Notes under the pieces: model-generated | What the model saw: only the letters and a program-made list of their open reading frames with translations | Told to the model about the DNA's origin: nothing | Databases searched by the model: none | Shown here: positions 9,096-21,675 of the stretch, in pieces | Numbering within the stretch: the stretch's first letter is position 1 | Layout: every line of letters starts with the position of its first letter | Position numbers and translations under genes: made by a program | NCBI GenBank assembly: GCA_017864995.1 | Contig: GCA_017864995.1_4097.1 | Origin: a phage | DNA length: 64,000 nt | Reading direction: 5' to 3' (one strand)

Positions 9096-9335
9096 ATGGC
9101 TAAATCAAAAATGTTCTTAGGTCACAAAAACAAAACTCATTGGAATGTAAGCCTTTGGATTAATAACGATGAGGGATTGTATCGGTTGGCCCTGGATTTT
9201 ATTAACGATAACACTAATCGCAATGATGCGGCCCGTCATATGATGTTATTTTTAGAACAGACTGGACAAGATAAAACACCGGACGGATTCAAATATAGCA
9301 CTACTGCGATCCGTGCGGCGATGGTTGGAATGTAA
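9096..9335 (+). CDS. hypothetical protein, paralog of 11133-11372
   Basis: MAKSKMFLGHKNKTHWNVSLWINN...TPDGFKYSTTAIRAAMVGM shared with 11133 gene. Confidence 0.6.
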   Translation: MAKSKMFLGHKNKTHWNVSLWINNDEGLYRLALDFINDNTNRNDAARHMMLFLEQTGQDKTPDGFKYSTTAIRAAMVGM

Positions 9336-9349
9336 TAGAATTTATTTAA

Positions 9350-9383
9350 AGTACTATCATTTTTTGCGATAGTACTTTATAAT
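9350..9383 (+). promoter_or_regulatory. class II promoter (AGTACT...AGTACT-tt-TATAAT)
   Basis: two AGTACT hexamers 21 bp apart, second abutting TATAAT; weak -35. Confidence 0.4.
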
Positions 9384-9420
9384 AGTGTTTTATTCATACA
9401 CCAACGATAAGGGCAACAGC

Positions 9421-9687
9421 ATGAATATTAAGTATTTTGCGACGCGTGAACAAGCTCGGATCGCCGCACGCCAGGACGGGGCAACGTTTAAAGATATGGG
9501 CGTACAATCGGAACGTGGTAAACGTTGGGCCATTGTAAAGCGTAGTACCGCCAGATCATTACAGTACTGGTTAGCGGCCTTAAAAAGTCCCGATAGTGTA
9601 TCGCGTCGAGTGGTAGAAATAAAGCTCGACCGAAAGGGCAACCGCGTGACCGTGTACCGTACTAAAAAGATTGCAGTACTTGAATAA
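9421..9687 (+). CDS. hypothetical protein, paralog of 21258-21653
   Basis: MNIKYFATREQARIAARQDGATFKDMG...RKGNRVTVYRTKK shared with 21258 gene. Confidence 0.6.
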   Translation: MNIKYFATREQARIAARQDGATFKDMGVQSERGKRWAIVKRSTARSLQYWLAALKSPDSVSRRVVEIKLDRKGNRVTVYRTKKIAVLE

Positions 9688-9694
9688 AAAGTAC

Positions 9695-9722
9695 TTGCAA
9701 ACTATGTTTAAAGGCGTATAAT
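9695..9722 (+). promoter_or_regulatory. class I promoter (TTGCAA-16-TATAAT)
   Basis: followed by hairpin GCGGGAA-ctc-TTCCCGC at 9737-9753. Confidence 0.6.
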
Positions 9723-9774
9723 GTTTTACATCGAGAGCGGGAACTCTTCCCGCCTATAACCTGGAGTAATAAAA

Positions 9775-10005
9775 ATGACTAATATGTATATGACTGAAGT
9801 TAAAACCGTAAAAGATACTACCACGAATAAAACTACTTACTTACAGCGGATCTGTGGTGTATGGCAACGTATCAGCAAATCAAAGTACTTTAAATTAACA
9901 TCATATGCAAATCGTTCGGATTCATTCAGTACTGAAATAAAAGGTAATAAAGTACACCAATACGGCACTTATTATTATTATAGCCTGGACGCGATTGCAG
10001 TATAA
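9775..10005 (+). CDS. hypothetical protein (76 aa)
   Basis: MTNMYMTEVK; RBS CTGGAG. Confidence 0.55.
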   Translation: MTNMYMTEVKTVKDTTTNKTTYLQRICGVWQRISKSKYFKLTSYANRSDSFSTEIKGNKVHQYGTYYYYSLDAIAV

Positions 10006-10252
10006 GCAGTTTACAAATCTTTACAATTGCCGGTATTGACTTATTTTGTCAGTACTGGCATAATGTATTCATTGGCAGATAAGCCGTAGCCCATAGGGTG
10101 CGGGAGTGTATCTATAGCAAAATTAGTTTAGTATAGTTACAATTGTGCACCCGGTGGGTTAGCTGTTGTCATGGGGTATATTATGCCAGTACTTGATAAT
10201 GCTGTCAATACTTTTTTACTATTCAGTACTGAAAACTATTTTTAAAAAGTAC

Positions 10253-10280
10253 TTGCAAACTATGTTTAAAGGCGTATAAT
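10253..10280 (+). promoter_or_regulatory. class I promoter (TTGCAA-16-TATAAT)
   Basis: drives conserved leader element 10291-10369. Confidence 0.5.
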
Positions 10281-10290
10281 GTTTTACATC

Positions 10291-10369
10291 AGGACGGGGA
10301 ACGAAATAAGTAACTTCCCGTTAAGTAGCCCAGGAGTAAGGCACACGAAAAACTCCCCTGATAAAATAG
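10291..10369 (+). ncRNA. candidate structured leader/sRNA element (copy 1)
   Basis: AGGACGGGGAACGAAATAAGTAAC..CCCGTTAAGTAG..CAGGAGTAAG..ACGAAAAACTCCCCTG; near-identical copy at 20066-20143. Confidence 0.3.
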
Positions 10370-10370
10370 T

Positions 10371-10398
10371 TTGACAATAGAAAGTAAAAGCGTATAAT
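10371..10398 (+). promoter_or_regulatory. promoter TTGACA-16-TATAAT
   Basis: second promoter immediately upstream of 10431 gene. Confidence 0.5.
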
Positions 10399-10430
10399 AC
10401 TTACATCAACTACTGAATGAGGGTTACAAA

Positions 10431-11042
10431 ATGAAAACTATCACTACTACTACTTTTGTTATGGCTTTTTCTGAACTGAACGCAGAACAAAAAACGGCGG
10501 CTATCGAACTGGTTCGGGATCGTGAGCGTTCATGTGAGGATAATTTCTTTGCTGAGGGCGTTATCGAGTACTATAAAGAAACAGTACTACCAGAATACGG
10601 CATAGATGAAGCTGAATTGCAATACAGTGGTTTTTGGTCGCAAGGTGACGGTGCATCAATCAGTACTGACCACGTTGACGCAGTGAAGTTTTTACGCAAG
10701 GTAAGAGCATTAACTAAGTATCGCTCAATCCGTCACTTGCTGAATGAAGATGATTTGGCGATGAGTGTAGAACGTTCACACTCTCGCTACGCACACGAAA
10801 ACACGGTAAGCGGGTACATTGAATCGGCTTACACTGATTTAACCGCAAAACAAGAAACGTTAGTTAATGAGCTTGAGGAACTACTCACTGATACTATTCG
10901 TGAATTGTCCCGCAAGTTGTACCGTGATTTAGAGAATGCATATGAGGATCAATTCACTACTGAAAACATTACGGCACTGATTGAGGGTAACGAATATCAA
11001 TTCAATGTTATTGATGGCGTAGTGGAATCAATCGAATATTAA
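10431..11042 (+). CDS. hypothetical acidic protein (203 aa)
   Basis: MKTITTTTFVMAF; largest gene in this block; function unknown. Confidence 0.6.
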   Translation: MKTITTTTFVMAFSELNAEQKTAAIELVRDRERSCEDNFFAEGVIEYYKETVLPEYGIDEAELQYSGFWSQGDGASISTDHVDAVKFLRKVRALTKYRSIRHLLNEDDLAMSVERSHSRYAHENTVSGYIESAYTDLTAKQETLVNELEELLTDTIRELSRKLYRDLENAYEDQFTTENITALIEGNEYQFNVIDGVVESIEY

Positions 11043-11054
11043 TTTAAAAAGTAC

Positions 11055-11082
11055 TTGCAAACTAAGTTTAAAAGCGTATAAT
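11055..11082 (+). promoter_or_regulatory. class I promoter (TTGCAA-16-TATAAT)
   Basis: followed by hairpin GGCGGGGA..TCCCCGC. Confidence 0.6.
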
Positions 11083-11132
11083 ACTTTACATCAAGGCGGG
11101 GAGTGGTTCCCCGCTCAAACGAGGATTTAAAA

Positions 11133-11372
11133 ATGGCTAGTACTAAAACTTACAACGGACACAAAAACAAAACTCATTGGAATGTAAGCCTTTGGATTAA
11201 TAACGGTGAGTCATTGTATCGGCTTGCTCAAAGTTGCATCGCACAAAGTAGAACTAAAGATATTGCTGCGGAATGTATGTACCGCAGATTAAAAGCCAAC
11301 GGTACTACTACAACGCCGGACGGCTTTAAGTATAGCACTACTGCGATCCGTGCTGCAATGGTTGGAATGTAA
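11133..11372 (+). CDS. hypothetical protein, paralog of 9096-9335
   Basis: MASTKTYNGHKNKTHWNVSLWINN...; start at RBS-supported internal Met. Confidence 0.6.
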   Translation: MASTKTYNGHKNKTHWNVSLWINNGESLYRLAQSCIAQSRTKDIAAECMYRRLKANGTTTTPDGFKYSTTAIRAAMVGM

Positions 11373-11392
11373 TATTCAGTACTGAGATAATG

Positions 11393-11415
11393 GCGGGTAA
11401 TAGTTCCCGCCTTTA
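11393..11415 (+). terminator. intergenic hairpin GGCGGG-N7-CCCGCC (weak terminator or processing site)
   Basis: same hairpin type as the 5'-UTR hairpins but no promoter; weak T-run. Confidence 0.3.
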
Positions 11416-11429
11416 CTGAGGGTTATCTA

Positions 11430-11690
11430 ATGAGTAAAGTAATTAGCTATACAGCACTAAGCAAGACATTATCTATTAGCCAGTGCACCGATGGTTATTG
11501 GCTATTTGATGAAACGCGTGGCATGAATTTAGCCATGCGTGCAAAAACTGCTGAGGCGGCGTATCTTGAAGCATTGGAATACTACCAGGAACGTTTAAAG
11601 GAAGTAGAAGAAGATTATAAAAGCCTCAAAGCGAAAGTAGATCATTTCGTCGGTCAATTCATCGAGGAAGACGACGACAAACAATATTGA
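11430..11690 (+). CDS. hypothetical protein (86 aa)
   Basis: MSKVISYTALSK; RBS GAGGG. Confidence 0.55.
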   Translation: MSKVISYTALSKTLSISQCTDGYWLFDETRGMNLAMRAKTAEAAYLEALEYYQERLKEVEEDYKSLKAKVDHFVGQFIEEDDDKQY

Positions 11691-11776
11691 AAAAGTACTT
11701 GCAATTAGTTTTCAGTACTGTATAATGGTTTACATCAAAGGGAGAAATGGTTCTCCCTGGTAATGAGGAAAATACA

Positions 11777-11998
11777 ATGGCTAATATCACTACTCTTTCC
11801 CAACTGGAAGCACTGGTTAAATCTATGCGGGAACATGCCGACAAAATCGGCGTACAAGATCCAGCCGTTTGCTTCTGCGACGAATTGAATGATGATACCC
11901 TGGTAATAGCAGAAGTCCAGGACGTTTCTAACTATTCCTCGCGTTACACTGGCGGCGTAGCAAATAAAGGCGACTTCTGTTTATACCTTACAAAATAA
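11777..11998 (+). CDS. hypothetical protein (73 aa)
   Basis: start MANITTLSQ after class I promoter plus hairpin GGGAGAA..TTCTCCC. Confidence 0.55.
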   Translation: MANITTLSQLEALVKSMREHADKIGVQDPAVCFCDELNDDTLVIAEVQDVSNYSSRYTGGVANKGDFCLYLTK

Positions 11999-12002
11999 CA
12001 AC

Positions 12003-12035
12003 GCGGGGAGATAATAACTCCCCGTTACTTTTTCA
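12003..12035 (+). terminator. rho-independent terminator
   Basis: GGGGAG-ataataa-CTCCCC followed by TTACTTTTT. Confidence 0.5.
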
Positions 12036-12240
12036 GTACTGAATCATTTAATAGACGGATCTCGGCACCCGGTGGGTTAGTGACTGTTTCGTCTTGATGT
12101 AGTAATTATGCCAGTACTGGATGCACTTGTCAACAACTATTTTTCAAATACTTTTTATTAAAATACTTGCAATTAGTTTTTAAACGCGTATAATGTTTTG
12201 CATAGGGGGAGCGGTTCCCCTGGTAACTAAGGATAATCAA

Positions 12241-12540
12241 ATGAAAATTACAATCATCGCCCTGGCTTTATCTGTTTCCTCTTTCGCTGTTAATGCGTCA
12301 TTAGATGTAAGTAGTGAAAAATTCATTCAGTGCACTGTTGCAATGACCGATGAAAGTACTGGCGAGATTGTATTAAAGGATCTGGAGATTCAGCCGGAAG
12401 CATTTAAAAACGGCCCGTTCCATGAAGAAGACGAAAACGGTAGCACGACAATTTATTATGATGCCAGTACTAAACGCGGTTCGGTCACTGTCATGGATAC
12501 TGAGAAAGTAACTCATACCGGCGTTATTAATTGCCGTTGA
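12241..12540 (+). CDS. small secreted/periplasmic protein (signal peptide)
   Basis: start MKITIIALALSVSSFAVNA-SLD, typical signal peptide; class I promoter plus hairpin upstream. Confidence 0.55.
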   Translation: MKITIIALALSVSSFAVNASLDVSSEKFIQCTVAMTDESTGEIVLKDLEIQPEAFKNGPFHEEDENGSTTIYYDASTKRGSVTVMDTEKVTHTGVINCR

Positions 12541-12561
12541 TAGATACTACGGGGTAACATC

Positions 12562-12792
12562 ATGACTAAGCGAATTGTTTTACTTAACGAAAGCAGTACT
12601 ACACAACTACTTAACGCCGTGCATTATGATATTGAAACGAGCGTTAATCTTATCAGTACTGTAGTACTGTTGGACACTGGAAAGGTCGCCAATGATAAAG
12701 CGATTGCAGGTATATTAACGGATCTTGAGCCTGGTCGCAGTGCACCAATAACGTTAAATTGTAAAGTGTTTAATATTTTACTCACTGATTAA
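12562..12792 (+). CDS. hypothetical protein (76 aa)
   Basis: MTKRIVLLNESS; followed by strong terminator. Confidence 0.5.
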   Translation: MTKRIVLLNESSTTQLLNAVHYDIETSVNLISTVVLLDTGKVANDKAIAGILTDLEPGRSAPITLNCKVFNILLTD

Positions 12793-12798
12793 GTACAT

Positions 12799-12826
12799 AG
12801 CCCACCTGGTGGGCTTTTTTGTTTTT
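12799..12826 (+). terminator. rho-independent terminator
   Basis: AGCCCACC-t-GGTGGGCT then TTTTTTGTTTTT. Confidence 0.7.
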
Positions 12827-12874
12827 GTAGTATCGTAGTACTGAGATACTTTGAAAATAGTTTTAAGAAAGTAG

Positions 12875-12902
12875 TTGACATTACCGCAGAAAAGCGTAGA
12901 AT
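12875..12902 (+). promoter_or_regulatory. promoter TTGACA-16-TAGAAT
   Basis: followed by ~110-nt leader related to the 10291/20066 elements. Confidence 0.45.
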
Positions 12903-13031
12903 GTATTACATCAAGACGGGGAGCACTAAGTAGACCGCCAGTAAGTCGAACGAAAAACTGGACACGTCGAGAAAACTTTGATACACTAATAAACGTAAAC
13001 GTAAACTTAACTTTAATTGAGGATTTATAAA

Positions 13032-13514
13032 ATGGCTAATGTAAAATCATTCATCAAAGCACTGGTAGCAAATGAAACTAACGTCGCGGCTGAGATCCTG
13101 GCTGAACTGGATAACGATACCATGAAAGCGGTACGCAATAATTTTAACATCGCGTACAGTACTGCGAAAGAACTACAAGCAAATAAAGCGGCAGAAATTG
13201 AAGCGGCAAAGGCGGCCCGTGAAGCAGAACTAAAAGCAACAATTGAAAGTATCCAGGCGGCAGTAGTTGGATTGGATCTGGAAGTAGTTACAGAGATGGC
13301 ACAAAAAGCCCTGGCGGTTAAGTATGGGGAAGACAAGCCAGAAGTAAAAGCCAAAAAATGGATTCAGGAACGCGTAGCGGTAGTACTGGACAACGGGGAA
13401 GAATATCTGATTCCGGTGCGTGGTAACTGCATTGCGGTAGTACTGGACGCGATTAACTCCAGTGGTATGACTCGCGAGGAATGGATCGAAGCTCATCGCA
13501 AAGTTGAAGCATAA
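13032..13514 (+). CDS. hypothetical Ala/Glu/Lys-rich coiled-coil-like protein
   Basis: MANVKSFIKAL...AAEIEAAKAAREAELKATIESIQAA; RBS GAGGA. Confidence 0.6.
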   Translation: MANVKSFIKALVANETNVAAEILAELDNDTMKAVRNNFNIAYSTAKELQANKAAEIEAAKAAREAELKATIESIQAAVVGLDLEVVTEMAQKALAVKYGEDKPEVKAKKWIQERVAVVLDNGEEYLIPVRGNCIAVVLDAINSSGMTREEWIEAHRKVEA

Positions 13515-13535
13515 CAATTAAAGTACTGAATCACT

Positions 13536-13566
13536 AGCCCACCTTAAACGGTGGGCTTTTTTGTGT
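13536..13566 (+). terminator. rho-independent terminator
   Basis: AGCCCACC-ttaaac-GGTGGGCT then TTTTTTGTGTTT. Confidence 0.7.
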
Positions 13567-13716
13567 TTATCGTTTACCAGGCCACCAGCACCGCCTAGAA
13601 ACGATTCTAACGCATTAAACTGATTATCTGATGCATTGCCCTAGCTGGTGGCGGTAAGGTCGTTGTAATGCGATTGAGAGCGTTTAAAGTATTTTGCAAA
13701 AAGTAATAAAAAGTAC

Positions 13717-13744
13717 TTGCACGATTAAGAGATTAGCGTATAAT
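13717..13744 (+). promoter_or_regulatory. class I promoter (TTGCAC-16-TATAAT)
   Basis: followed by hairpin GAGAGGGGGAA..TTCTCC. Confidence 0.55.
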
Positions 13745-13799
13745 GTTTTACATCGAGAGGGGGAAACGGTTCTCCTTCCAAATCAAAGGAATCAAAACA

Positions 13800-14027
13800 A
13801 TGGCTATTATCATTACTCGCGTATCTGGTACTACTGGCAACGAACAAGTAGTTGCAGTCATTACCATCAAGGAAGGTGCGGAATTGCAAAATGCAATGAA
13901 TACCTGGGCCGTTAATGAGTTCGGTCAGTGGGCAAGTGTAGCATACATTGAAACCTATCAAGTGCCGTCGATTAGTTTAACTGATTTGGGCGTTGAGCGT
14001 ATCCTTTGCCTTGATGAATTAAATTAA
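13800..14027 (+). CDS. hypothetical protein (75 aa)
   Basis: start MAIIITRVSG (track start 13743 lies in promoter/hairpin). Confidence 0.55.
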   Translation: MAIIITRVSGTTGNEQVVAVITIKEGAELQNAMNTWAVNEFGQWASVAYIETYQVPSISLTDLGVERILCLDELN

Positions 14028-14112
14028 AAAGTACTTGCAAAGTAAATCGAATAAAGTATAATACATTACATCAAGGGGAGAAAATGGTTCTCCCCACTAC
14101 AAGGAAACTAAA

Positions 14113-14256
14113 ATGAAAACTTGTCAATGTGGTCAGAAATCTATTACTGGTTTAAAGCGGGGCGTTGCACTTTGCCAGTACCATTATAATTTACAAGTAT
14201 GGGGTAAAGAATGGGCCGACCAGGTGGAAGCAGCAAAGAAAGCAAAAAGTAAGTAA
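14113..14256 (+). CDS. tiny Cys-containing protein (47 aa, below track cutoff)
   Basis: MKTCQCGQKS...LCQYHYN; own class I promoter plus hairpin upstream. Confidence 0.45.
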   Translation: MKTCQCGQKSITGLKRGVALCQYHYNLQVWGKEWADQVEAAKKAKSK

Positions 14257-14275
14257 AAATATTATCACAGTACTA

Positions 14276-14304
14276 TTGACATAGTTTGATAGTACTGGCA
14301 TAAT
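14276..14304 (+). promoter_or_regulatory. class II promoter (AGTACTaTTGACA-N9-gatAGTACTGg-CATAAT)
   Basis: TTGACA-17-CATAAT flanked by two AGTACT; near-identical copies at 17116 and 25293. Confidence 0.5.
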
Positions 14305-14345
14305 AGATTTTATCAAGACAACATATTAATTTAAGGAATACTAAA

Positions 14346-14669
14346 ATGGCTAAAACTATCATTAACACCGTTTCCCTGGCTGCAATCCGTGCAATCAATG
14401 TTGACGGTAAACGTTGGACTGATTCATATGGCAATACTTATCATTCTTGTCATGTAAGCGTCGAACTGGATAACGGTTTGAATGATCTGGCGGTTGAATC
14501 ATTTACTTATGGCTATGAAGATGCATATCAACAAACGGCGTTAGATCTATTAAAGGAATCAGTAGACGGGCTTAATACTGATGAAACCTCCCTTACTCGT
14601 TTGTGCAATGATCTTAATATCCCGTTGCATTGTACTGTACATAATGTTAAACGCAAAAAAGATCTTTAA
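14346..14669 (+). CDS. hypothetical protein, paralog of 20839-21162
   Basis: shared RWTDSYGNTYHSC..FTYGY..VKRKKD with 20839 gene. Confidence 0.6.
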   Translation: MAKTIINTVSLAAIRAINVDGKRWTDSYGNTYHSCHVSVELDNGLNDLAVESFTYGYEDAYQQTALDLLKESVDGLNTDETSLTRLCNDLNIPLHCTVHNVKRKKDL

Positions 14670-14749
14670 TTAGCTTTACTTTATGCAGATACTTTGATAT
14701 AGTGTCTGCATAGGGGAAAGAAATTAAATTAACTTAAGAGGAACGTATA

Positions 14750-15019: not shown

Positions 15020-15070
15020 TCAAAACATCGTTAGCGGTCGATTTAGGCCGCTTATATTGGGGATTATACC

Positions 15071-15343: not shown

Positions 15344-15348
15344 TTAAT

Positions 15349-15558: not shown

Positions 15559-15627
15559 TTTTTAAACGCGTATAATGTTTTACATGAAGGGGAGAAATGA
15601 TTCTCCCCACTAATTAAGGAATATGAA

Positions 15628-15774: not shown

Positions 15775-15855
15775 TACTTGCAATTAGTTTTTAGTACTGT
15801 ATAATGTTTTACATGAAGGGGAGAAATGATTCTCCCCAATAACAGGAGAATCAAA

Positions 15856-16008
15856 ATGAAACAATACAACGCTCGGTTTGATGTTACTATCGGTAACGGC
15901 AAAGGTCAATTCTCTTTCAGTACTCGCAAAAGTTATACAGAAAACTTCCTGCGTAATTGTGCACTGACCGCCGCACAAATTAAACATTATTTTCAGGCTA
16001 AAAAATGA
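15856..16008 (+). CDS. hypothetical protein (50 aa)
   Basis: start MKQYNARFD after RBS CAGGAGAA; class I promoter plus hairpin upstream. Confidence 0.5.
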   Translation: MKQYNARFDVTIGNGKGQFSFSTRKSYTENFLRNCALTAAQIKHYFQAKK

Positions 16009-16094
16009 AAACATTAGCTTACTATAGTTCGGCCCTGGTCGGTGCATTGATCGCGGCGTTGTTAGTAACCTATCTATTCTTTATGGTGATTTAA
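16005..16094 (+). CDS. candidate 29-aa single-pass membrane peptide
   Basis: MKTLAYYSSALVGALIAALLVTYLFFMVI; ATGA overlap with upstream stop. Confidence 0.35.
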   Translation: MKTLAYYSSALVGALIAALLVTYLFFMVI

Positions 16095-16238
16095 ATGAAT
16101 CCAACAGGTTTAAACTATAAAAGTTGTTCGGCATTTACGAAAGCAAATAAAGCGAATGCACGTAAAGCGAAAGTACAAGAATACATCAAGCAAGGCATGA
16201 CGCGAAAGGCGGCGATTCTAAAAGCTAAAAATAAATGA
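16095..16238 (+). CDS. small basic protein (47 aa)
   Basis: MNPTGLNYKSCSAFTKANKANARKAKVQEYIKQG; abuts upstream ORF. Confidence 0.4.
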   Translation: MNPTGLNYKSCSAFTKANKANARKAKVQEYIKQGMTRKAAILKAKNK

Positions 16239-16459
16239 AAAAAGTGGTTGACTCCGGTCAGCCATTTTGCTATTATATATTCATTGAGAGATAGCTCACT
16301 AGCCCACAGGGTGCATAAGTGTATCTATTATATAAGTATTGAGTACTGAAAACTATTTTAAAAGTATTTGTAGAAAGTACTTGCAAACTATCTCAATAAG
16401 CGTATAATGTTTTACATCGAAAGGGGAAACGGTTTCCCCTGGTAATAAGGAAACGAATC

Positions 16460-16801
16460 ATGACTATCTCAATTGCTCAATCTAACTTTGAAAATGAAAT
16501 CATCGCCCAGGCACTGCGTTTAAATGATGGTCGGGCCGAAATTAATTACGGTTTCAATTCAGGCGGTTGCGAAAACTATCAGTACTTTGTAACGGCTGAT
16601 GGCGGTGTCCTGGGTATCAATACAGTTATTGTAAACATCCAAAAAATTAATTTCAATGATCCAGACGATAGCCAGTTTTACATCACTGGCGTAGACGTGA
16701 ACTATGAGGATGACTCACTAACTGATGATTACACTGGCGAGCGGTTAGAAAGTGCATACGGTGAAGATGATTATCAGTCCGGTCCAGAAGATTTCGAATA
16801 A
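16460..16801 (+). CDS. hypothetical acidic protein (113 aa)
   Basis: MTISIAQSNF; Asp/Glu-rich C-term; class I promoter plus hairpin upstream. Confidence 0.6.
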   Translation: MTISIAQSNFENEIIAQALRLNDGRAEINYGFNSGGCENYQYFVTADGGVLGINTVIVNIQKINFNDPDDSQFYITGVDVNYEDDSLTDDYTGERLESAYGEDDYQSGPEDFE

Positions 16802-16897
16802 TATAAAAAAATAGTTTGACAATAGATTATAGTACTGTATAATAGTTTACATCAAGGGGAGAGATGATTCTCCCCACTAACAGAGAGAGAAAACAAA

Positions 16898-17110
16898 ATG
16901 GCTAATATCTGCACTGTACTGAAAAATGCAAAACAAGTTTTATTTTCTGATCACGATCATTTAAACAAGGATATTACTGGCGTTCGGAATATCAAAGATG
17001 TAAAAAGTGTTATGGGTATCTATTGCAATATGAAACGTGTTGGAACGTTCGGCGACAAAGTACTATACCAGGCAGGGGATTACAATTTTACACTGACTAT
17101 CATTAACTAA
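16898..17110 (+). CDS. hypothetical protein (70 aa)
   Basis: MANICTVLKNAK; promoter TTGACA-16-TATAAT plus hairpin upstream. Confidence 0.55.
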   Translation: MANICTVLKNAKQVLFSDHDHLNKDITGVRNIKDVKSVMGIYCNMKRVGTFGDKVLYQAGDYNFTLTIIN

Positions 17111-17193
17111 AAATATTATCACAGTACTATTGACATAGTTTGATAGTACTGACATAATAACTTTTATCAACTACACTACTAAGGAATTAAAAA

Positions 17194-17373
17194 ATGGCTA
17201 TCATCGCAAAAACTGAAATCGTTGGTCTGGATTCTATCATCATGACGTTTGAAGATCAAAAAGGTATGTATGTAGTTTCATATGGTGATTATGTTCGGGA
17301 GTATGAAACGGTAGACGAAGCCTTTGAAAGTTATATTCGCCAGGTGAATAAAGCATACGACGACTACCGCTAA
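17194..17373 (+). CDS. hypothetical protein (59 aa, below track cutoff)
   Basis: MAIIAKTEIVGLD; class II promoter upstream; RBS AAGGAA. Confidence 0.5.
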   Translation: MAIIAKTEIVGLDSIIMTFEDQKGMYVVSYGDYVREYETVDEAFESYIRQVNKAYDDYR

Positions 17374-17463
17374 AATATATTACCAGTACTATTGACAACG
17401 TTTGATAGTACTGTATAATAAGTTTTATAAACAGTAGTTAACTTAACCTAAGAGAGAAATAAA

Positions 17464-17607
17464 ATGATCGCACTGGATTCATTCATCGACGCAGTACTGG
17501 CAAAAACTGGCGAGGATCTGACCGCAGAACAATACGCGATGATCGAGCAATGTCAGCAAAACGGTAAATCGGTGAAAGATACTGTTAAGATTATCCGCAA
17601 GATGTAA
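17464..17607 (+). CDS. hypothetical protein (47 aa)
   Basis: MIALDSFIDAVLAK; class II promoter upstream; terminator downstream. Confidence 0.45.
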   Translation: MIALDSFIDAVLAKTGEDLTAEQYAMIEQCQQNGKSVKDTVKIIRKM

Positions 17608-17613
17608 TATTAT

Positions 17614-17643
17614 AGCCCACTGGTTAACGCTGGTGGGCTTTAA
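17614..17643 (+). terminator. terminator-like hairpin
   Basis: AGCCCAC-N12-GTGGGCT then TTTAATC; stem contains GCTGGTGG. Confidence 0.45.
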
Positions 17644-17706
17644 TCATTTACCCTATACAATGCCAGTACTCAACCGTTTATCTCGTTAGAATGCGTTACA
17701 GGACGT

Positions 17707-17919
17707 TTGACAATGATTAGCATGAAATCAGTACAAAAACAAATAGAAACATTATCAAAAATTAAACGTAAACAGTACTCGTTAGAATATACAATCAATG
17801 GTAACTATCATCTAATGAAAGAGAATAATTTCATTGTCATTGATGAATCATTGCAAGTTATTAGTATAGTACTGAAAGCATTAATCAATGACAGAAAAAA
17901 AATTAAAATAATCTATTGA
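17707..17919 (+). CDS. hypothetical protein (70 aa)
   Basis: ORF only; weak RBS and no clear promoter. Confidence 0.3.
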   Translation: MTMISMKSVQKQIETLSKIKRKQYSLEYTINGNYHLMKENNFIVIDESLQVISIVLKALINDRKKIKIIY

Positions 17920-18240
17920 CAATATCCTCCAGTACTGGCATAATACTTACATCAAGACGAGAACGTCACTAACCCATAGGGTGCACAAATGTAACTATAT
18001 AATATCGATCAATAAATGATCAAAAAAGTACTGGATCAATTTAGCATAAGGCGTATAATTCTGATCAATTCTTGATCAAAGGCAATATACGCAGTTGAAT
18101 TTATATAGACAGTACAAAGGCGTTACTATCCGTGGTAATGCTGGTGGATATGTAGTATCATGTGGTTTGAATAAGATTAGCACTAGTAGTATTATTGTAG
18201 CATTACAGTACTATAGTATTTTTATAATGAGGTTAAAATA

Positions 18241-18498
18241 ATGGCAGTAGGATACGCGAAAGACGGGGCCGAACAAGACGAGATTAACGCAGTGATTCAG
18301 GCAGCCGTTAACCACGCTAGAAAGCAAATTAACGCACAAAGAGAATCACTGGTACATTGCCTCGACTGCGGCGATAAAATCCCTGAGAATCGACGCCAGG
18401 CCGTTATAGGGTGCATGTATTGTATTACTTGCCAGGAGGATCATGATAGTACTTTTAAAAGAGATCCGCGTAATTGTTGGCATAGATCTATGAGATAA
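18241..18498 (+). CDS. TraR/DksA-family C4 zinc-finger protein
   Basis: RKQINAQ...CLDCGDKIPENRRQAVIGCMYCITCQ matches the TraR-type C-x2-C-G-x2-IPE-x-RR...C-x2-CQ pattern. Confidence 0.7.
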   Translation: MAVGYAKDGAEQDEINAVIQAAVNHARKQINAQRESLVHCLDCGDKIPENRRQAVIGCMYCITCQEDHDSTFKRDPRNCWHRSMR

Positions 18499-18505
18499 AA
18501 AGTAA

Positions 18506-18533
18506 TTGACAGTACTGAAAGATAGTGTATAAT
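18506..18533 (+). promoter_or_regulatory. promoter TTGACA-16-TATAAT
   Basis: AGTACTG in spacer; upstream of GNAT-like gene. Confidence 0.5.
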
Positions 18534-18562
18534 GTTTTATATCTTAACTGAGGATAGTAATC

Positions 18563-18919
18563 ATGGGAATACAACATATCACGCGTACTACTGACAATGG
18601 CGAGATCACTGGTTATCAGGTACAGGGCAAAGTAGCACAATTGCAGTACTGGTTTGTTAAACGTGGAATCATTGCACCGGATCTTGATTATGACCGTGTA
18701 GCGTTTATTGATTCTCTTTATGTTGATCCTGATAGTCGGGGCAATGGTGAAGGTAACGAATTAATGAATGCCTTTATTGATGCCGCCGATGATTCAGATT
18801 GTATCATCTTAGAATGCGATACGGGAGAAGATAACGCCTTTAATCTTAAAGAATGGTACGAAGGTTTCGGATTCGAGGTATTGATAGATAGTGAATATCC
18901 TATCATGATTTTATCATAG
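18563..18919 (+). CDS. putative GNAT-like acetyltransferase (small)
   Basis: LYVDPDSRGNGEGNELMNAFIDAA resembles GNAT motif A (R-x-x-G-x-G/A); weak call. Confidence 0.35.
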   Translation: MGIQHITRTTDNGEITGYQVQGKVAQLQYWFVKRGIIAPDLDYDRVAFIDSLYVDPDSRGNGEGNELMNAFIDAADDSDCIILECDTGEDNAFNLKEWYEGFGFEVLIDSEYPIMILS

Positions 18920-18996
18920 TACTTGCATTTAGTTTTCAGTACTGTTATAGTACTTGCATCAAGGGGAAATATCTTCCCCTACTAAGAGGAAATAAA

Positions 18997-19185
18997 ATGG
19001 AAAACTTATCAAGTATTTTAGTACAAGATGATTTCGGTAATCCTGGAAGTGCTATCATTGTTCGGGGCAATAAAGCAACGTTTGTTATTGCTGGTGGACC
19101 CGTACAGCGTAGCATTAAAAATAATGCTGTTACCATTAATAATGTACGCTATCGCTTAGATAAAGAATTAATTCATAAACTGTAA
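18997..19185 (+). CDS. hypothetical protein (62 aa)
   Basis: MENLSSILVQDD; promoter plus hairpin GGGGAAAT..TTCCCC upstream. Confidence 0.55.
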   Translation: MENLSSILVQDDFGNPGSAIIVRGNKATFVIAGGPVQRSIKNNAVTINNVRYRLDKELIHKL

Positions 19186-19270
19186 AAAAGTACTGGACAA
19201 TAGATTATAGTACTGTATAATAGTTTACATGAAGGGGAGAAATGATTCTCCCCACTAAGAGGAAAGAAAA

Positions 19271-19483
19271 ATGCAAGGTCAACTAATCGTTCGTAAATGG
19301 TCTGATACTAACGAAAAACCGTGGGATGTACAATACATCGCCCCCAATGGTGAATCCAGATATCAACCAGGTGTAACGCATAGTACTGAGCAATTCGCCG
19401 CCGCTCATCGCGAACGTCTGTTACAATCAATGCAGCAAGGTTCCGGTGAAAAATTCATTCAGGATCATTGGCTGAAAGATTAA
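19271..19483 (+). CDS. hypothetical protein (70 aa)
   Basis: MQGQLIVRKW; promoter plus hairpin upstream. Confidence 0.55.
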   Translation: MQGQLIVRKWSDTNEKPWDVQYIAPNGESRYQPGVTHSTEQFAAAHRERLLQSMQQGSGEKFIQDHWLKD

Positions 19484-19569
19484 AAAGTACTTGCACAGTA
19501 CTGAATAAAGTGTATAATGTTTTATATCGGAAGGGGAATAGTTCCCCTCCGAACAAAGAGGAAAGTATA

Positions 19570-19743
19570 ATGGTCCAGGTAGAATTAACAGTACTGAAAG
19601 ATCTGTTTTATCGGATTGGTACTACTGGCGAATATCCGAAGGGTGATAATGCAAAACTTTACGTATCACTCGACTTATGGCAACGCGAACAATTAGCAAC
19701 AGCCTGGCGTAAAGGCAAAGCAGATAGCGAGGTGAAAGCATGA
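19570..19743 (+). CDS. hypothetical protein (57 aa)
   Basis: start MVQVELTVLK after RBS AAAGAGGAAAG; track start 19468 lies in promoter. Confidence 0.5.
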   Translation: MVQVELTVLKDLFYRIGTTGEYPKGDNAKLYVSLDLWQREQLATAWRKGKADSEVKA

Positions 19744-19889
19744 AAGAATTCTTATTTGAAGTAGTGTTTCAAGGTGTCGGCAATAACCAACTGATTCGAT
19801 CAAGTGGTTATAATGTTAACCAGGCATGGAATAACATTAAACAAATGTACCCGAACGCTATCACATATCGCAACCCGAAAGAAGTTTAA
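19740..19889 (+). CDS. hypothetical protein (49 aa)
   Basis: MKEFLFEVVFQGVGNN; ATGA overlap with upstream stop. Confidence 0.4.
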   Translation: MKEFLFEVVFQGVGNNQLIRSSGYNVNQAWNNIKQMYPNAITYRNPKEV

Positions 19890-20204
19890 AAAATAATTGA
19901 AAAAGGGATTGACTCCGGTCAGTCCCTTTGCTATTATATACGCATAGAAACAAATCAGCCCACCGGGTGCATAAATGTATCTATTGTTTGCTGGTGGCTA
20001 GTACTGAAAACTATTTTTAAAAAGTACTTGCATTGTACTTATAATCAAGTATAATGTTTTACATCAGGACGGGGAACGAAATAAGTAACCCCGTTAAGTA
20101 GTCCAGGAGTAAGACATACGAAAAACTCCCCTGATAAAATAGTTTGACAATAGAAAGTAAACGAGTATAATACTTACATCAACCACTGATAAGGAAACAT
20201 AAAA

Positions 20205-20480
20205 ATGCGGATTCTACTGACAGCTAACGAAATCGAACAAGTACTGACTACTAACCTGGAAGACTGGAAACGTGAAGCAGATATCCAGGCGGTTCAATGG
20301 TTAAATGATAAGTTAACGCCGGATGACTTAAGCAAGATTGTAGATCCTCAATTCTACGAAGATATCCACGACACCGCGTTAAGCGTCGAGGATGTACTAG
20401 ATAAGCACTTTATTGATACTGATTTGCAGGTTTACGGTCGTAAAAACTTTATCACTATTCACGACATTTACAATAATTAA
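20205..20480 (+). CDS. hypothetical protein (91 aa)
   Basis: MRILLTANEIEQ; downstream of leader element copy 2 and a second promoter. Confidence 0.55.
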   Translation: MRILLTANEIEQVLTTNLEDWKREADIQAVQWLNDKLTPDDLSKIVDPQFYEDIHDTALSVEDVLDKHFIDTDLQVYGRKNFITIHDIYNN

Positions 20481-20567
20481 GTATTGACAAAGTATCTTAG
20501 TACTGTATAATAGTTTACATCGAGAGGGGGGAATGGTTCCCCTCCTAACTAAAAGAGAGAAATAAAA

Positions 20568-20750
20568 ATGGCTAAGTGCACTATCTGCAAGAAAGAAATA
20601 GTATTAGTTCCAAGTGCCCGTGAACGTGCCGCTCGGTTCGGTGGCAAAGCGTCAGACTATACAAAAATGTTTACTACCCATACAGCTTGCCAGGTAGCAA
20701 AACGTTCACAAGAAAGCGTAGAATTAATGCGTAAACTTTCCAAAAAATAA
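20568..20750 (+). CDS. small Cys-containing protein (possible zinc ribbon)
   Basis: MAKCTICKKE...HTAC; promoter plus hairpin upstream. Confidence 0.5.
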   Translation: MAKCTICKKEIVLVPSARERAARFGGKASDYTKMFTTHTACQVAKRSQESVELMRKLSKK

Positions 20751-20838
20751 GTATTGACAAAGTATCTTAGTACTGTATAATAGTTTACATCAAGTGAGGG
20801 GAAACGGTTCCCCTCCTAACAAAGAGAGAGAAATAAAA

Positions 20839-21162
20839 ATGGCTATGATCCTTGCCCAGAAAGTAGAATTGAAAATTGTAACCTCCTTTGACATTAACGT
20901 TAATCGGTGGACTGATTCACACGGCAATACTTACCACTCTTGCTACGTGTCTGCGTTAATTGGCGACCGCTGGGAAGACCTGGGACACGAAACCTTTACA
21001 TACGGTTACGGTACACAAGGCGAATACACGGGCTTGGAGATCATTAAAGAAACCGTTATAGGTTTCAACCCGAAAGAAAAAGTTATTCACCGCATCGAGG
21101 AAGAGATCAACAAAGAAATAACAGTTCGCTACCACGATGTAAAACGTAAGAAAGACATGTAA
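20839..21162 (+). CDS. hypothetical protein, paralog of 14346-14669
   Basis: MAMILAQKVEL..NRWTDSHGNTYHSC..FTYGYG..VKRKKDM. Confidence 0.6.
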   Translation: MAMILAQKVELKIVTSFDINVNRWTDSHGNTYHSCYVSALIGDRWEDLGHETFTYGYGTQGEYTGLEIIKETVIGFNPKEKVIHRIEEEINKEITVRYHDVKRKKDM

Positions 21163-21257
21163 TAGAATCCATTTAAAGTACTATTTGACATTGCCCAGAT
21201 AGTACTTTATAATAGACTCTAACTTGTAGTACTAACTCAACCAATAGGATGTATACC

Positions 21258-21653
21258 ATGATTACTAAATTCTACGCTACCCGTGAAGCTGCCCGTATTG
21301 TTGCACGCGAGGAAGGAGCAGCATTTAAAGACATGGGAACGACAGCACCGAAAGGTCAACGCTGGGCCGTACAGTTCAAAGAAATCTCTGATATTGTGAA
21401 TTCACCTGAGCCAGTACTAACAGCAGCAGAACTAAAACGAGCGGATATGCTGGCGGCAATACTTGACGCACAAGATGAGTTTATCGCTGATTCTGATATC
21501 AAAGTACAGGTAAACCACACCGCATGGACTCACGCGGATCACCTGGCAAACCTTAAGCGTCCAAGTGAACTGATTCGCAACCAGAAAGAGATCCGACATG
21601 ATCGTAAGGGTAATCGTGTAACAGTATACAGTAAACGCCGCCAGGTTATCTAA
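21258..21653 (+). CDS. hypothetical protein, paralog of 9421-9687
   Basis: MITKFYATREAARIVAREEGAAFKDMG...RKGNRVTVYSKRR. Confidence 0.6.
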   Translation: MITKFYATREAARIVAREEGAAFKDMGTTAPKGQRWAVQFKEISDIVNSPEPVLTAAELKRADMLAAILDAQDEFIADSDIKVQVNHTAWTHADHLANLKRPSELIRNQKEIRHDRKGNRVTVYSKRRQVI

Positions 21654-21675
21654 TAACTTGCAGTACTAACAACAC

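What the first reader, a model, noticed from the sequence alone, without database searches (positions are those of the whole stretch)
9096..21653. Dispersed paralog pairs among the singly promoted small genes
Seen: 9096-9335 and 11133-11372 share GHKNKTHWNVSLWINN and TPDGFKYSTTAIRAAMVGM; 9421-9687 and 21258-21653 share KYFATRE.ARI.AR..GA.FKDMG and RKGNRVTVY; 14346-14669 and 20839-21162 share RWTDS.GNTYHSC, FTYGY and VKRKKD. Pairs are 2-12 kb apart and diverged, so these are older duplications than the tandem arrays.
Basis: seen in the sequence. Interest (0 to 1): 0.45.

Follow-up and report, generated by a model that had tools for sequence, protein, structure and literature searches.

The report
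Duplicated early genes in jumbo-phage repeat
The three gene pairs are real, diverged relatives from three small phage protein families of unknown function, sitting in the early-gene terminal repeat of an E. coli jumbo phage, where self-contained promoter-plus-gene units are copied, swapped and exchanged with other phages; this is a typical pattern, not a new kind of system.

Summary
All three pairs are confirmed: BLASTP E 7e-36, 1e-19 and 6e-31, and 25-54 SD above shuffled controls.

The window comes from an Asteriusvirus, a PBECO4/121Q-like E. coli jumbo phage. The pairs lie in its ~21 kb direct terminal repeat (window ~6583-27400). That region is a row of ~50 small genes, most with a near-consensus sigma-70 promoter and many with a G/C leader hairpin.

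- **Family identity.** Pair 1 is Pfam DUF7249/phrog_871, pair 2 is phrog_8127 and pair 3 is phrog_6246. None has a known function.
- **Selection.** All six genes are intact in the related phages that carry them. Ortholog dN/dS is 0.1-0.2 where divergence is informative (121Q) and up to 0.6 in comparisons resting on few substitutions.
- **Origin.** "Simple old duplication" holds only in part.
  - F1a is closer to genes of ~150 kb Phapecoctavirus phages (83-95% aa; 87% DNA including the promoter) than to F1b (63%).
  - The F2 pair shares a private promoter variant, and phage EJP2 carries a mosaic intermediate.
  - The F1b and F3a slots are replaced or empty in related phages.
- **Age.** The tandem arrays are as diverged as these pairs, so the "older" claim fails.

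The pattern resembles PeSL-type modular shuffling in T4-like phages. Protein function remains inferred: early host-takeover or accessory proteins.

The parts
6583..27400 (+). Direct terminal repeat (DTR) early region of an Asteriusvirus: about 50 small + strand genes, most with their own sigma-70-type promoter. The right boundary is approximate.
   Evidence: Window 9000-22000 is 95% identical to Escherichia phage vB_Ec-M-J positions 1659-16117, inside its annotated 21,525-bp 'Direct Terminal Repeats'. Record position 1 maps to window 6583. A ~21 kb DTR was confirmed by restriction digests in fEgEco12 (PMC13070987). At least 29 strong promoters lie between 6.9 and 26.5 kb on the + strand and almost none elsewhere.
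9096..9335 (+). F1a, 79 aa, DUF7249 / phrog_871, pI 9.2.
   Evidence: Pfam PF23907 at 44.4 bits (cutoff 27); phrog_871 E 5.5e-29. It is 63% identical to F1b and 83-95% identical to proteins on 135-155 kb phage contigs. Ortholog dN/dS is 0.11-0.46.
9017..9095 (+). F1a promoter (TTGCAA-16-TATAAT), leader hairpin GTGGGGAA-TAG-TTCCCCAC (~9057-9075) and Shine-Dalgarno sequence.
   Evidence: This promoter plus gene is 80-87% DNA-identical to Phapecoctavirus genomes, for example phiWec188.
11133..11372 (+). F1b, 79 aa, DUF7249 / phrog_871, pI 9.9.
   Evidence: Pfam PF23907 at 50.7 bits; phrog_871 E 6.3e-29. No F1b-type copy was detected in 121Q, G17 or A4.
11055..11132 (+). F1b promoter (TTGCAA-16-TATAAT) and leader hairpin GCGGGGA-GTGG-TTCCCCGC.
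9421..9687 (+). F2a, 88 aa, phrog_8127 short form (linker deleted), pI 11.0.
   Evidence: phrog_8127 E 3.9e-26. Aligned to F2b. Its C-terminus is 33/38 identical to the long-form F2 that occupies the same slot in phage EJP2.
9333..9420 (+). F2a private promoter variant: TAATAGAATnnATTTAAAGTACTAT ... GATAGTACTTTATAATAG. It has no G/C hairpin and starts at the stop codon of F1a.
   Evidence: The 25-nt element occurs only at 9333 and 21160 in the 64-kb window, against 0 expected. Aligned.
21258..21653 (+). F2b, 131 aa, phrog_8127 long form, pI 9.5.
   Evidence: phrog_8127 E 1.2e-34. It lies in synteny with the single F2 gene of Klebsiella phage RaK2 (ORF353, 40% identity).
21160..21257 (+). F2b promoter (TTGACA-17-TATAAT) carrying the same private upstream element. 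It begins at the stop codon of F3b; with the preceding ATG the shared string is ATGTAATAGAAT.
21676..21694 (+). Intrinsic-terminator-like hairpin GGCGGGATCAGTTCCCGCC plus a T-run after F2b.
14346..14669 (+). F3a, 107 aa, phrog_6246, pI 5.2. The predicted alpha/beta fold gives only weak RNase H-like matches.
14276..14345 (+). F3a promoter (TTGACA-17-TGgCATAAT, extended -10), no leader hairpin.
20839..21162 (+). F3b, 107 aa, phrog_6246, pI 5.9. It ends ...KRKKDM where all other family members examined end ...K(R/C)KKDL.
   Evidence: phrog_6246 E 7.9e-36. Alignment; junction analysis.
20754..20838 (+). F3b promoter (TTGACA-16-TATAAT) and leader hairpin GAGGGGAA-ACGG-TTCCCCTC.

Best explanation
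**What it is.** The three pairs are genuine, anciently diverged homologues from three phage-specific small-protein families.
- F1 is DUF7249.
- F2 is phrog_8127.
- F3 is phrog_6246.

**Where it sits.** They are encoded in the ~21 kb direct terminal repeat of an Asteriusvirus jumbo phage. Each gene is a self-contained early-expression unit: a near-consensus sigma-70 promoter, in half of the cases a G/C leader hairpin, a Shine-Dalgarno sequence and a short ORF.

**How the pairs arose (shown by comparison).** The pairs come from, and are kept dispersed by, cassette-level recombination. This occurs between the many near-identical promoter/hairpin repeats, between the paralogues themselves, and with the early regions of other coliphages. 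It is the same kind of modular shuffling described for PeSL elements in T4-type phages. It produces duplication (F2), slot swapping and allele replacement (F1b, F3a), mosaic genes (EJP2 F2) and inter-genus transfer (F1a).

**What the proteins do (inferred, not shown).**
- Being in the terminal repeat and read by unmodified host RNA polymerase, the six proteins are probably made in the first minutes of infection. They probably act as non-enzymatic binders that adjust host or phage nucleic-acid or protein machinery.
- F1 and F2 are strongly basic and small, so a nucleic-acid or RNA-polymerase-associated target is the most likely.
- F3 is acidic with an invariant basic tail; its alpha/beta fold gives only weak RNase H-like matches.
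- Keeping two diverged copies under purifying selection suggests two specificities, not dosage.
For: **Homology**
-.

**Genome identity and DTR location**
- and PMC13070987.

**Cassette anatomy**
- At least 29 near-consensus promoters lie on the + strand between 6.9 and 26.5 kb.
- 23 of 23 '-10 plus G-run/C-run hairpin' motifs in the window fall inside the DTR.

**Family membership**
-.

**Purifying selection**
- All six genes are intact in the comparison genomes that carry them (vB_Ec-M-J, SP27, 121Q).
- dN/dS is 0.11-0.21 against 121Q, where dS is 0.35-0.5. F3a is the exception: its dS against 121Q is 0.03 and its dN/dS 0.43 rests on five substitutions.

**Horizontal exchange**
- The F1a promoter plus gene is 80-87% DNA-identical to Phapecoctavirus and Vequintavirinae phages, yet the protein is only 63% identical to F1b.
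- A 7-kb Phapecoctavirus early region holds homologues of 8 window DTR gene families, including F1 and F3 plus a short protein matching the F2 N-terminus only weakly (E 0.002), in a different order.
- F3a differs from its 121Q copy by dS 0.03, while neighbouring genes differ by 0.35-0.5.

**Duplication or conversion of F2 with its promoter**
- A private 25-nt element is found only upstream of the two F2 genes.
- The shared tract starts at ATG-TAA. That ending is native to F1 genes, which end ...VGM. It is foreign to F3, which ends ...KKDL everywhere except in F3b.
- EJP2 keeps ...KKDL and a different promoter at its F3-F2 junction.
- The EJP2 slot-A F2 is mosaic: its N-terminus is 32/40 identical to F2b and its C-terminus 33/38 identical to F2a.
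- RaK2-like phages have one copy.

**Slot replacement**
- 121Q lacks F1b and SP27 has a 32%-identical F3 at the F3a slot.
- EJP2 has F1b-like and F1a-like genes in exchanged slots.

**Precedent**
- PMC2839356.
Against: - There are no expression data, so early timing is inferred from promoters and position.
- The leader hairpins lie downstream of the -10 and mostly lack U-tracts. They are not obviously the terminators that define PeSLs. F2a, F2b and F3a have no such hairpin.
- No recombination event was observed directly; junctions are inferred by comparing a few genomes.
- F1 also occurs in cyanophages and Ralstonia phages. That argues against a host-specific target and leaves its role open.
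Confidence: 0.7

Rival explanations
1. Plain intragenomic duplication followed by divergence. Each pair arose once by copying within the ancestral Asteriusvirus genome and has since diverged in place.
For: - Both members of each pair lie in the same 21-kb region on the same strand.
- F2 is single-copy in RaK2-like phages and two-copy in Asteriusvirus.
- The F1a and F1b clades are sister groups in the neighbour-joining tree.
Against: - F1a is nested among genes of 135-155 kb coliphages and shares 80-87% DNA identity with them, including the promoter.
- F1b and F3a are missing or replaced in 121Q, G17, A4, SP27, UE-S1 and SHEFM2K.
- EJP2 shows exchanged F1 slots and a mosaic F2.
- F3a and F3b are no closer to each other than to homologues in other genera.
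Confidence: 0.2
2. Independent acquisition (xenology). The two members of a pair entered the genome separately from the shared pool of coliphage early genes, with no duplication in this lineage.
For: - All three families occur in other phage groups: 328 phage records for F1, 210 for F3 and 58 for F2.
- The Phapecoctavirus early region shares many genes with this DTR.
- The F3 lineages (F3a, F3b, the SP27 type, the EJP2 type, the Phapecoctavirus type) are all about equally distant, at 32-47%.
Against: - The F2 copies share a private promoter and junction found nowhere else in the window. An intermediate mosaic sits in the same slot in EJP2. Both point to within-lineage copying.
- F2 is essentially restricted to the RaK2-like jumbo clade.
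Confidence: 0.25
3. The three families form one functional module. F1, F2 and F3 proteins work together, for example as a basic/acidic complex, and the pairs are two versions of the same system.
For: - In the window both F2 genes are immediately preceded by an F1 or F3 gene: F1a-F2a and F3b-F2b.
- The same holds in EJP2 with very diverged members: F1c-F2long and F3-F2'.
- F3 and F1 are adjacent in many Stephanstirmvirinae and Vequintavirinae genomes.
- F3 is acidic and F1/F2 are basic.
Against: - F1b and F3a are not next to any F2.
- RaK2 has F2 without a neighbouring F1 or F3.
- The F3b-F2b adjacency looks secondary. The junction carries an F1-type last codon.
- The adjacencies come from related genomes and are not independent observations.
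- The families have very different taxonomic ranges.
Confidence: 0.12
4. Chance similarity, or artefact of over-called ORFs.
For: Two other apparent pairs in the same region are artefacts of translating repeated promoter DNA.
Against: - z-scores are 25-54 against shuffles.
- Family HMM matches reach E 1e-26 to 1e-40.
- The same ORFs are annotated in many related genomes, and ortholog dN/dS is below 1.
Confidence: 0.01

Closest known systems
PeSL (promoter-early stem-loop) cassettes of T4-type phages (Arbiol et al. 2010, PMC2839356; Comeau et al. 2014, PMC4122927)
   Same: - Strong sigma-70 consensus promoters with A/T-rich upstream DNA and a polyG/polyC stem-loop.
- Repeated dozens of times upstream of small ORFans in a hyperplastic region.
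- Insertions, deletions and replacements between close relatives coincide with these units.
   Different: - A different phage lineage and a different location: a 21-kb terminal repeat rather than internal hyperplastic regions.
- The hairpin lies after the -10, in the transcribed leader, and mostly lacks a U-tract, so a terminator role is doubtful.
- Three of the six genes here have no hairpin.
- Mini-circles were not examined.
Pre-early genes in the long terminal repeat of phage T5
   Same: - A long, non-permuted direct terminal repeat.
- Many small genes of unknown function read by host sigma-70 RNA polymerase.
- Every gene is present twice per virion genome.
   Different: - No sequence homology was tested or found.
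- Two-step DNA injection is not known for Asteriusvirus.
- The repeat here is twice as long, with about 50 genes.
Pfam DUF7249 (PF23907) / PHROG 871; PHROG 8127; PHROG 6246
   Same: The six proteins match these family models above threshold.
   Different: These are families of unknown function, so membership gives a name and no mechanism.
Paralogous ORFs reported in the RaK2-like jumbo phage CBB (PMC5259590)
   Same: The same jumbo-phage clade, a ~22 kb terminal repeat with 51 small ORFs, RpoD-like promoters with UP-like elements in the early region, and 22 ORFs noted as paralogues.
   Different: That paper lists paralogues without analysing how they arose. Whether it covers these particular families was not checked.
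RNase H-like / ASKHA-type alpha-beta fold (for F3 only)
   Same: - Three long antiparallel strands followed by helix, helix and strand.
- An invariant Asp at the end of the first long strand, followed by a Gly-rich hairpin (D-x-x-G-N-T-Y-H).
   Different: - No complete catalytic acidic set could be placed.
- The protein is smaller than any known active RNase H-like enzyme.

Membership tests
Pfam DUF7249 (PF23907) | Whole-protein score above the curated gathering cutoff (27 bits) | tested here: met
   F1a scores 44.4 bits and F1b 50.7 bits. All 120 listed homologues carry PF23907.
PHROG 871 / 8127 / 6246 | Significant full-length match to the family HMM | tested here: met
   E 5.5e-29 and 6.3e-29 for F1; 3.9e-26 and 1.2e-34 for F2; 1.3e-40 and 7.9e-36 for F3.
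PeSL-type mobile regulatory cassette | Repeated sigma-70 consensus promoter with an A/T-rich upstream region, in front of small ORFs of unknown function | tested here: met
   At least 29 such promoters lie on the + strand between 6.9 and 26.5 kb. All six genes have one.
PeSL-type mobile regulatory cassette | Associated G/C-rich stem-loop | tested here: inconclusive
   Present for F1a, F1b and F3b and at 23 sites in the DTR. Absent for F2a, F2b and F3a.
PeSL-type mobile regulatory cassette | The stem-loop acts as a transcription terminator or attenuator | not testable with these tools
   Most hairpins lie downstream of the -10 and lack a T-run. Only a few sites in this region, for example 21676-21694, look like intrinsic terminators.
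PeSL-type mobile regulatory cassette | Gene gain, loss or replacement between close relatives coincides with the cassettes | tested here: met
   121Q lacks F1b, and SP27 has a different F3 at the F3a slot. EJP2 has exchanged F1 slots and a mosaic F2. The F1a promoter and gene were transferred together.
PeSL-type mobile regulatory cassette | Excised mini-circles formed by recombination between neighbouring cassettes | not testable with these tools
   This needs PCR or sequencing-read evidence from infected cells or virions.
T5-like pre-early terminal-repeat genes | Location inside a long, non-permuted direct terminal repeat | tested here: met
   Collinear at 95% with the annotated DTR of vB_Ec-M-J. 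The fEgEco12 DTR was verified by digestion.
T5-like pre-early terminal-repeat genes | First-step transfer and expression before the rest of the genome enters | not testable with these tools
   No data.
RNase H-like nuclease superfamily (F3) | Confident structural match to the fold | tested here: inconclusive
   [not shown]
RNase H-like nuclease superfamily (F3) | Conserved catalytic acidic residues (DEDD / DDE) on strand 1, helix 1 and strand 4 or the C-terminal helix | tested here: inconclusive
   The invariant acidic residues are D26, D47 and D106. D26 is at the expected place. No invariant acidic residue lies on helix 60-72. This was assessed by eye without a structural superposition.
Known anti-phage defence proteins (PADLOC) / NCBIfam named families | Match to any model | tested here: not met
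   No PADLOC hit, and only sub-threshold noise in NCBIfam.

The most novel reading that the evidence does not exclude
F1, F2 and F3 may be parts of one previously unrecognised immediate-early module. In this reading a very basic F2 protein works with either a basic helical F1 (DUF7249) or an acidic alpha/beta F3. The phage keeps two diverged versions to cover two variants of a host target, such as a defence or nucleic-acid-handling factor. The repeated F1-F2, F3-F2 and F3-F1 adjacencies across deeply diverged genomes would then reflect function, not ancestry.
Probability: 0.1. Interest if true: 0.55.

Novelty: new member of a known kind. Interest (0 to 1): 0.3.

Why it matters
About 75-80% of genes in these 350-kb therapeutic-candidate coliphages are annotated as hypothetical. 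The terminal repeat is the block likely to act first in infection.

This work shows that the block is built from exchangeable promoter-gene units, and that some of them (DUF7249, phrog_6246) are shared with unrelated 150-kb coliphages. DUF7249 even reaches cyanophages.

That points to a common pool of early accessory genes. It also gives a short list of conserved, duplicated candidates for host-takeover or counter-defence screens. It does not reveal a new kind of system.

Tried and rejected
1. **NCBIfam and PADLOC scans of all six proteins.** Nothing above noise.

2. **Pfam on every member of the F2 and F3 alignments at E <= 5.** No consistent family.

3. **Profile searches of PDB sequences for all three families.** No credible hit. 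The F3 match to a designed helical repeat (E 4e-5) comes from a low-complexity helix.

4. **Exhaustive HMM search of 1.84 billion representatives with the F2 profile.** Only 67 hits, almost all 40-190 aa standalone proteins. The one long hit, P0217 (630 aa), consists of ExoX-like_C repeats. By eye it matches the F2 profile only through a 'GRTFADL...W' similarity summed over seven repeats. I rejected a link between F2 and ExoX-like_C.

6. **Two extra 'pairs' from the all-against-all search (8266/13743 and 23325/24673).** Rejected as translated promoter/hairpin DNA.

7. **A duplicated multi-gene block.** The genes after F1b (11430-11690) and after F3a (14750-15019) show no F2 motif, so this was rejected.

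8. **The afdb50 fold library** was not available.

9. **Rfam on the DTR.** No hit of note.

10. **Literature searches** for DUF7249 and the PHROG numbers found nothing on these families. A search for an AGTACT motif found nothing relevant in the ten papers listed.

Full report

Yes. The six ORFs are present on the + strand at the stated coordinates. BLASTP results:
- 9096-9335 vs 11133-11372: 63% identity over 79 ungapped residues, E 7e-36.
- 9421-9687 vs 21258-21653: 35% identity, E 1e-19. The conserved N- and C-terminal blocks are separated by a ~45-residue stretch present only in the longer protein.
- 14346-14669 vs 20839-21162: 40% identity over 107 ungapped residues, E 6e-31.

Smith-Waterman scores lie 54, 25 and 41 standard deviations above 1000 shuffles, and cross-family scores are at background.

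In an all-against-all comparison of window ORFs, these are the only true dispersed pairs between 8 and 27 kb. Two further weak 'pairs', 8266/13743 and 23325/24673, share only 'MFYIERGK...'. That string is the in-frame translation of the repeated promoter and hairpin DNA upstream of the real start codons.

**2. Where are we?**

- Window 9000-22000 is 95% identical over its whole length to Escherichia phage vB_Ec-M-J. It is 92-97% identical in parts to fEgEco12, PBECO4, 121Q, G17 and other members of the genus Asteriusvirus, which are 350-385 kb jumbo myoviruses of E. coli.
- In vB_Ec-M-J the matching stretch lies inside the annotated 21,525-bp direct terminal repeat.
- Record position 1 corresponds to window 6583, and the repeat should end near window 27.4 kb.
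- A ~21 kb repeat was confirmed by PhageTerm and restriction digests for the close relative fEgEco12 (PMC13070987).
- Each of the six genes is therefore present twice in the packaged linear genome.

**3. Anatomy of the units**

The + strand between 6.9 and 26.5 kb carries at least 29 near-consensus sigma-70 promoters: TTGCAA or TTGACA, a 16-17 nt spacer, then TATAAT, often preceded by A/T-rich DNA. Almost none occur elsewhere in the window.

In 23 cases the -10 is followed after 8-16 nt by a G-run/C-run hairpin such as GTGGGGAA-TAG-TTCCCCAC. A Shine-Dalgarno sequence and the start codon follow. All 23 are inside the repeat.

The six genes divide as follows:

| Gene | Promoter type | Leader hairpin |
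|---|---|---|
| F1a | TTGCAA-16-TATAAT | yes |
| F1b | TTGCAA-16-TATAAT | yes |
| F3b | TTGACA-16-TATAAT | yes |
| F3a | TTGACA-17, extended -10 | no |
| F2a | private variant | no |
| F2b | private variant (TTGACA-17-TATAAT) | no |

**4. What the proteins are**

*F1 (79 aa, pI 9-10)*
- It belongs to Pfam DUF7249 and phrog_871.
- tblastn finds it in 328 phage records. These include Asteriusvirus, Phapecoctavirus, Vequintavirinae, Ralstonia, Vibrio and Aeromonas phages and about 90 T4-like cyanophages.

*F2 (88 and 131 aa, pI 9.5-11)*
- It is phrog_8127.
- It has a very conserved ~38-residue N-terminal module (F-A-T-R-E-x-A-R ... F-K-D-M-G ... G-x-R-W-A-V), a variable linker, and a C-terminal L-K-x-P ... 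D-R-K-G-N-x-V-T-V-Y block.
- A full HMMER scan of 1.84 billion representatives gave only 67 hits. Nearly all are small standalone proteins, and some consist of the N-module alone at 38-46 aa.
- Among phages it is confined almost entirely to RaK2-like jumbo phages.

*F3 (107 aa, pI 5-6)*
- It is phrog_6246 and occurs in 210 phage records across Enterobacteria, Pectobacterium, Cronobacter, Xanthomonas, Stenotrophomonas and Pseudomonas phages.
- Invariant residues are R23, W24, D26, G29-H33, D47, F53-Y57, K70 and most of the C-terminal V-K-R-K-K-D tail (V101, K102, K104, K105, D106).
- The model has pLDDT 86 and pTM 0.76. It shows three long antiparallel strands, two helices and a final strand.
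- BFVD returns only uncharacterised family members plus weak RNase H and terminase hits.

No NCBIfam, PADLOC or PDB-sequence match exists for any family.

**5. Are both copies functional?**

All six genes are intact in the comparison genomes that carry them (vB_Ec-M-J, SP27, 121Q).
- Against 121Q, where synonymous divergence is informative (dS 0.35-0.5), dN/dS is 0.11-0.21. F3a is the exception: its dS against 121Q is only 0.03 (see section 6d).
- All estimates fall between 0 and 0.58; the higher values rest on few substitutions.
- Between paralogues, dS is saturated for F2 and F3. For F1, dS is 0.78 and dN/dS is 0.44.

**6. How did the pairs arise?**

The evidence goes beyond simple duplication.

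(a) *F1a has been exchanged between genera.*
- F1a is 83-95% identical to proteins on 135-155 kb phage contigs but only 63% identical to F1b.
- In a neighbour-joining tree it is nested among them, and the F1b clade is the sister group.
- At DNA level the F1a promoter plus gene is 80-87% identical to Phapecoctavirus and Vequintavirinae genomes.
- A 7-kb Phapecoctavirus early region contains homologues of 8 window DTR gene families in a different order. These include F1 and F3 and a 55-aa protein matching the F2 N-motif only weakly (E 0.002).

(b) *F1b and F3a sit in variable slots.*
- No F1b-type copy was detected in 121Q, G17 or A4.
- In SP27 the F3a slot holds an F3 that is only 32% identical.
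- In UE-S1 and SHEFM2K the best match to F3a is only 38-40% identical, the level of the F3b orthologue.

(c) *F2 was copied together with its promoter.*
- RaK2-like phages have a single F2 gene in synteny with F2b. Every Asteriusvirus listed has two (two or four places per record, four where both terminal-repeat copies are assembled).
- The two window copies share a 25-nt element, TAATAGAATnnATTTAAAGTACTAT, and an identical -10 context. The element is found only at 9333 and 21160 in the 64 kb, against 0 expected.
- The shared tract begins at ATG-TAA. That is the native end of F1 genes, which all end ...VGM. It is foreign to F3: every other family member examined ends ...K(R/C)KKDL, while F3b ends ...KKDM.
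- The divergent Asteriusvirus EJP2 keeps ...KKDL and an unrelated promoter at its F3-F2 junction.
- EJP2's other F2 lies downstream of an F1 gene in the F2a slot. It is a long form whose N-terminus and linker resemble F2b (32/40 and 28/47 identical) and whose C-terminus resembles F2a (33/38 identical).
- The simplest reading has three steps. The F1-linked F2 cassette, promoter included, overwrote the F2 at the F3 locus. The copy left behind then lost its linker to become F2a. The paralogues have since recombined within the coding region.

(d) *Other signs of cassette movement.*
- EJP2 also has F1b-like and F1a-like genes in exchanged slots relative to the window.
- F3a differs from its 121Q copy by dS 0.03, while other genes differ by 0.35-0.5, which indicates recent cassette exchange within the genus.

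**7. Comparison with what is known**

- *PeSLs.* The pattern is the one described for PeSLs in T4-type phages: strong sigma-70 promoters with G/C stem-loops, repeated upstream of ORFans in hyperplastic regions, mediating insertion, deletion and replacement (PMC2839356). Three differences stand out. The phage lineage is different. The location is a terminal repeat. The hairpin sits in the transcribed leader without a U-tract, so a terminator role is doubtful, and half of the six genes lack it.
- *T5.* The positional analogy with the pre-early genes of T5 rests on my own knowledge and was not tested.
- *CBB.* Paralogues and RpoD-like early promoters have been noted in the related jumbo phage CBB, without analysis of their origin (PMC5259590).

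**8.

The tandem arrays at 1.5-6.3, 27.5-35.7 and 36-53 kb are mostly 25-45% identical, with the best pairs at 55-69%. The dispersed pairs (35-63%) are therefore not older on this measure.

**9. Verdict**

The biology is typical for this kind of phage region: members of known families of unknown function, in a known type of plastic early-gene region, shaped by cassette recombination and horizontal exchange.

Protein function remains inferred. I think early, non-enzymatic binders are most likely, with nucleic acid or RNA polymerase as a plausible target for the basic F1 and F2 proteins, but I hold this with low confidence.

The recurring F1-F2, F3-F2 and F3-F1 adjacencies leave a small chance that the three families form a functional module.

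Noticed in passing
whole window; dense 1-27264, none 27265-32781, sparse 35-43.6 kb, dense again 44-48 kb: AGTACT (the ScaI palindrome) is the most frequent hexamer in the window: 281 sites against 18.9 +/- 4.4 in dinucleotide shuffles. It occurs in coding and intergenic DNA and often flanks the -35 and -10 of the early promoters (AGTACTTGCAA, CAGTACTGTATAAT). Outside promoters it has no conserved context. The dense zone ends close to the right end of the terminal repeat. It may be a site for DNA modification, a binding protein or nicking; it remains unexplained.
   Followed up: partly
window ~10253-10370, ~20028-20143 and, diverged, ~12875-12990: Three dispersed copies of a promoter-driven unit with no ORF. 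Each has a sigma-70 promoter followed by ~75 nt (ACATCAGGACGGGGAAC...CCAGGAGTAAG...ACGAAAAACTCCCCTGAT). In the first two copies the promoter of the next gene follows. Copies 1 and 2 are 88-91% identical over ~200 bp. Predicted folds are modest (z -1.8 and -2.9; third copy -0.4) and there is no Rfam match. It could be an early small RNA or a leader.
   Followed up: partly
window 8266-8685 / 13743-14027 and 23325-23600 / 24673-24990: These are apparent paralogy artefacts. ORFs that start at upstream ATGs translate the repeated promoter/hairpin DNA into 'MFYIERGK...', which produces spurious BLAST matches. The true starts are downstream.
   Followed up: yes
L002 (Phapecoctavirus Ro121c4YLVW, NC_052654, 128092-135421): The early region of an unrelated 150-kb coliphage has the same architecture: small genes ~85 bp apart. 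It carries homologues of 8 window DTR gene families at 36-89% aa identity and in a different order (the 24179, 8266, 17194, F3, F1, 13743 and 16898 families, plus a 55-aa protein that matches the F2 N-terminus only weakly, E 0.002). F3 and F1 are adjacent there and in many Stephanstirmvirinae and Vequintavirinae genomes.
   Followed up: partly
window 14346-14669 vs 121Q (L004 10366-10689): F3a differs from its 121Q copy by dS 0.03. F1a, F2a, F2b and F3b differ from 121Q by dS 0.35-0.5. This points to recent exchange of a single cassette within the genus.
   Followed up: partly
window 1511-6280, 27493-35725 and 36435-53351: Large tandem arrays of small paralogous genes (60-190 aa; 25-69% identical) flank the terminal repeat. 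Unlike the DTR genes, they have almost no individual strong promoters.
   Followed up: no
window ~6000-8000: GC skew changes sign, from about -0.2 to +0.1, and GC content rises from 0.33 to 0.40 near the left end of the terminal repeat at 6583.
   Followed up: no
GenBank records MG065656, MG065689, MG065690, MG065674 ('Campylobacter phage' C3, A110a, A135, A140; 141-146 kb): These records carry F1 and F3 homologues and DNA 73% identical to the F1a cassette, like E. coli Phapecoctavirus and Vequintavirinae phages. The host label looks doubtful.
   Followed up: no
L007 (Escherichia phage CMSTMSU, MH494197, 115547-120828): Homologues of 20205, 20568, F3b, F2b and 21715 are broken into several frames in this 'UNVERIFIED_ORG' record. 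This is probably sequencing error and not pseudogenisation.
   Followed up: no
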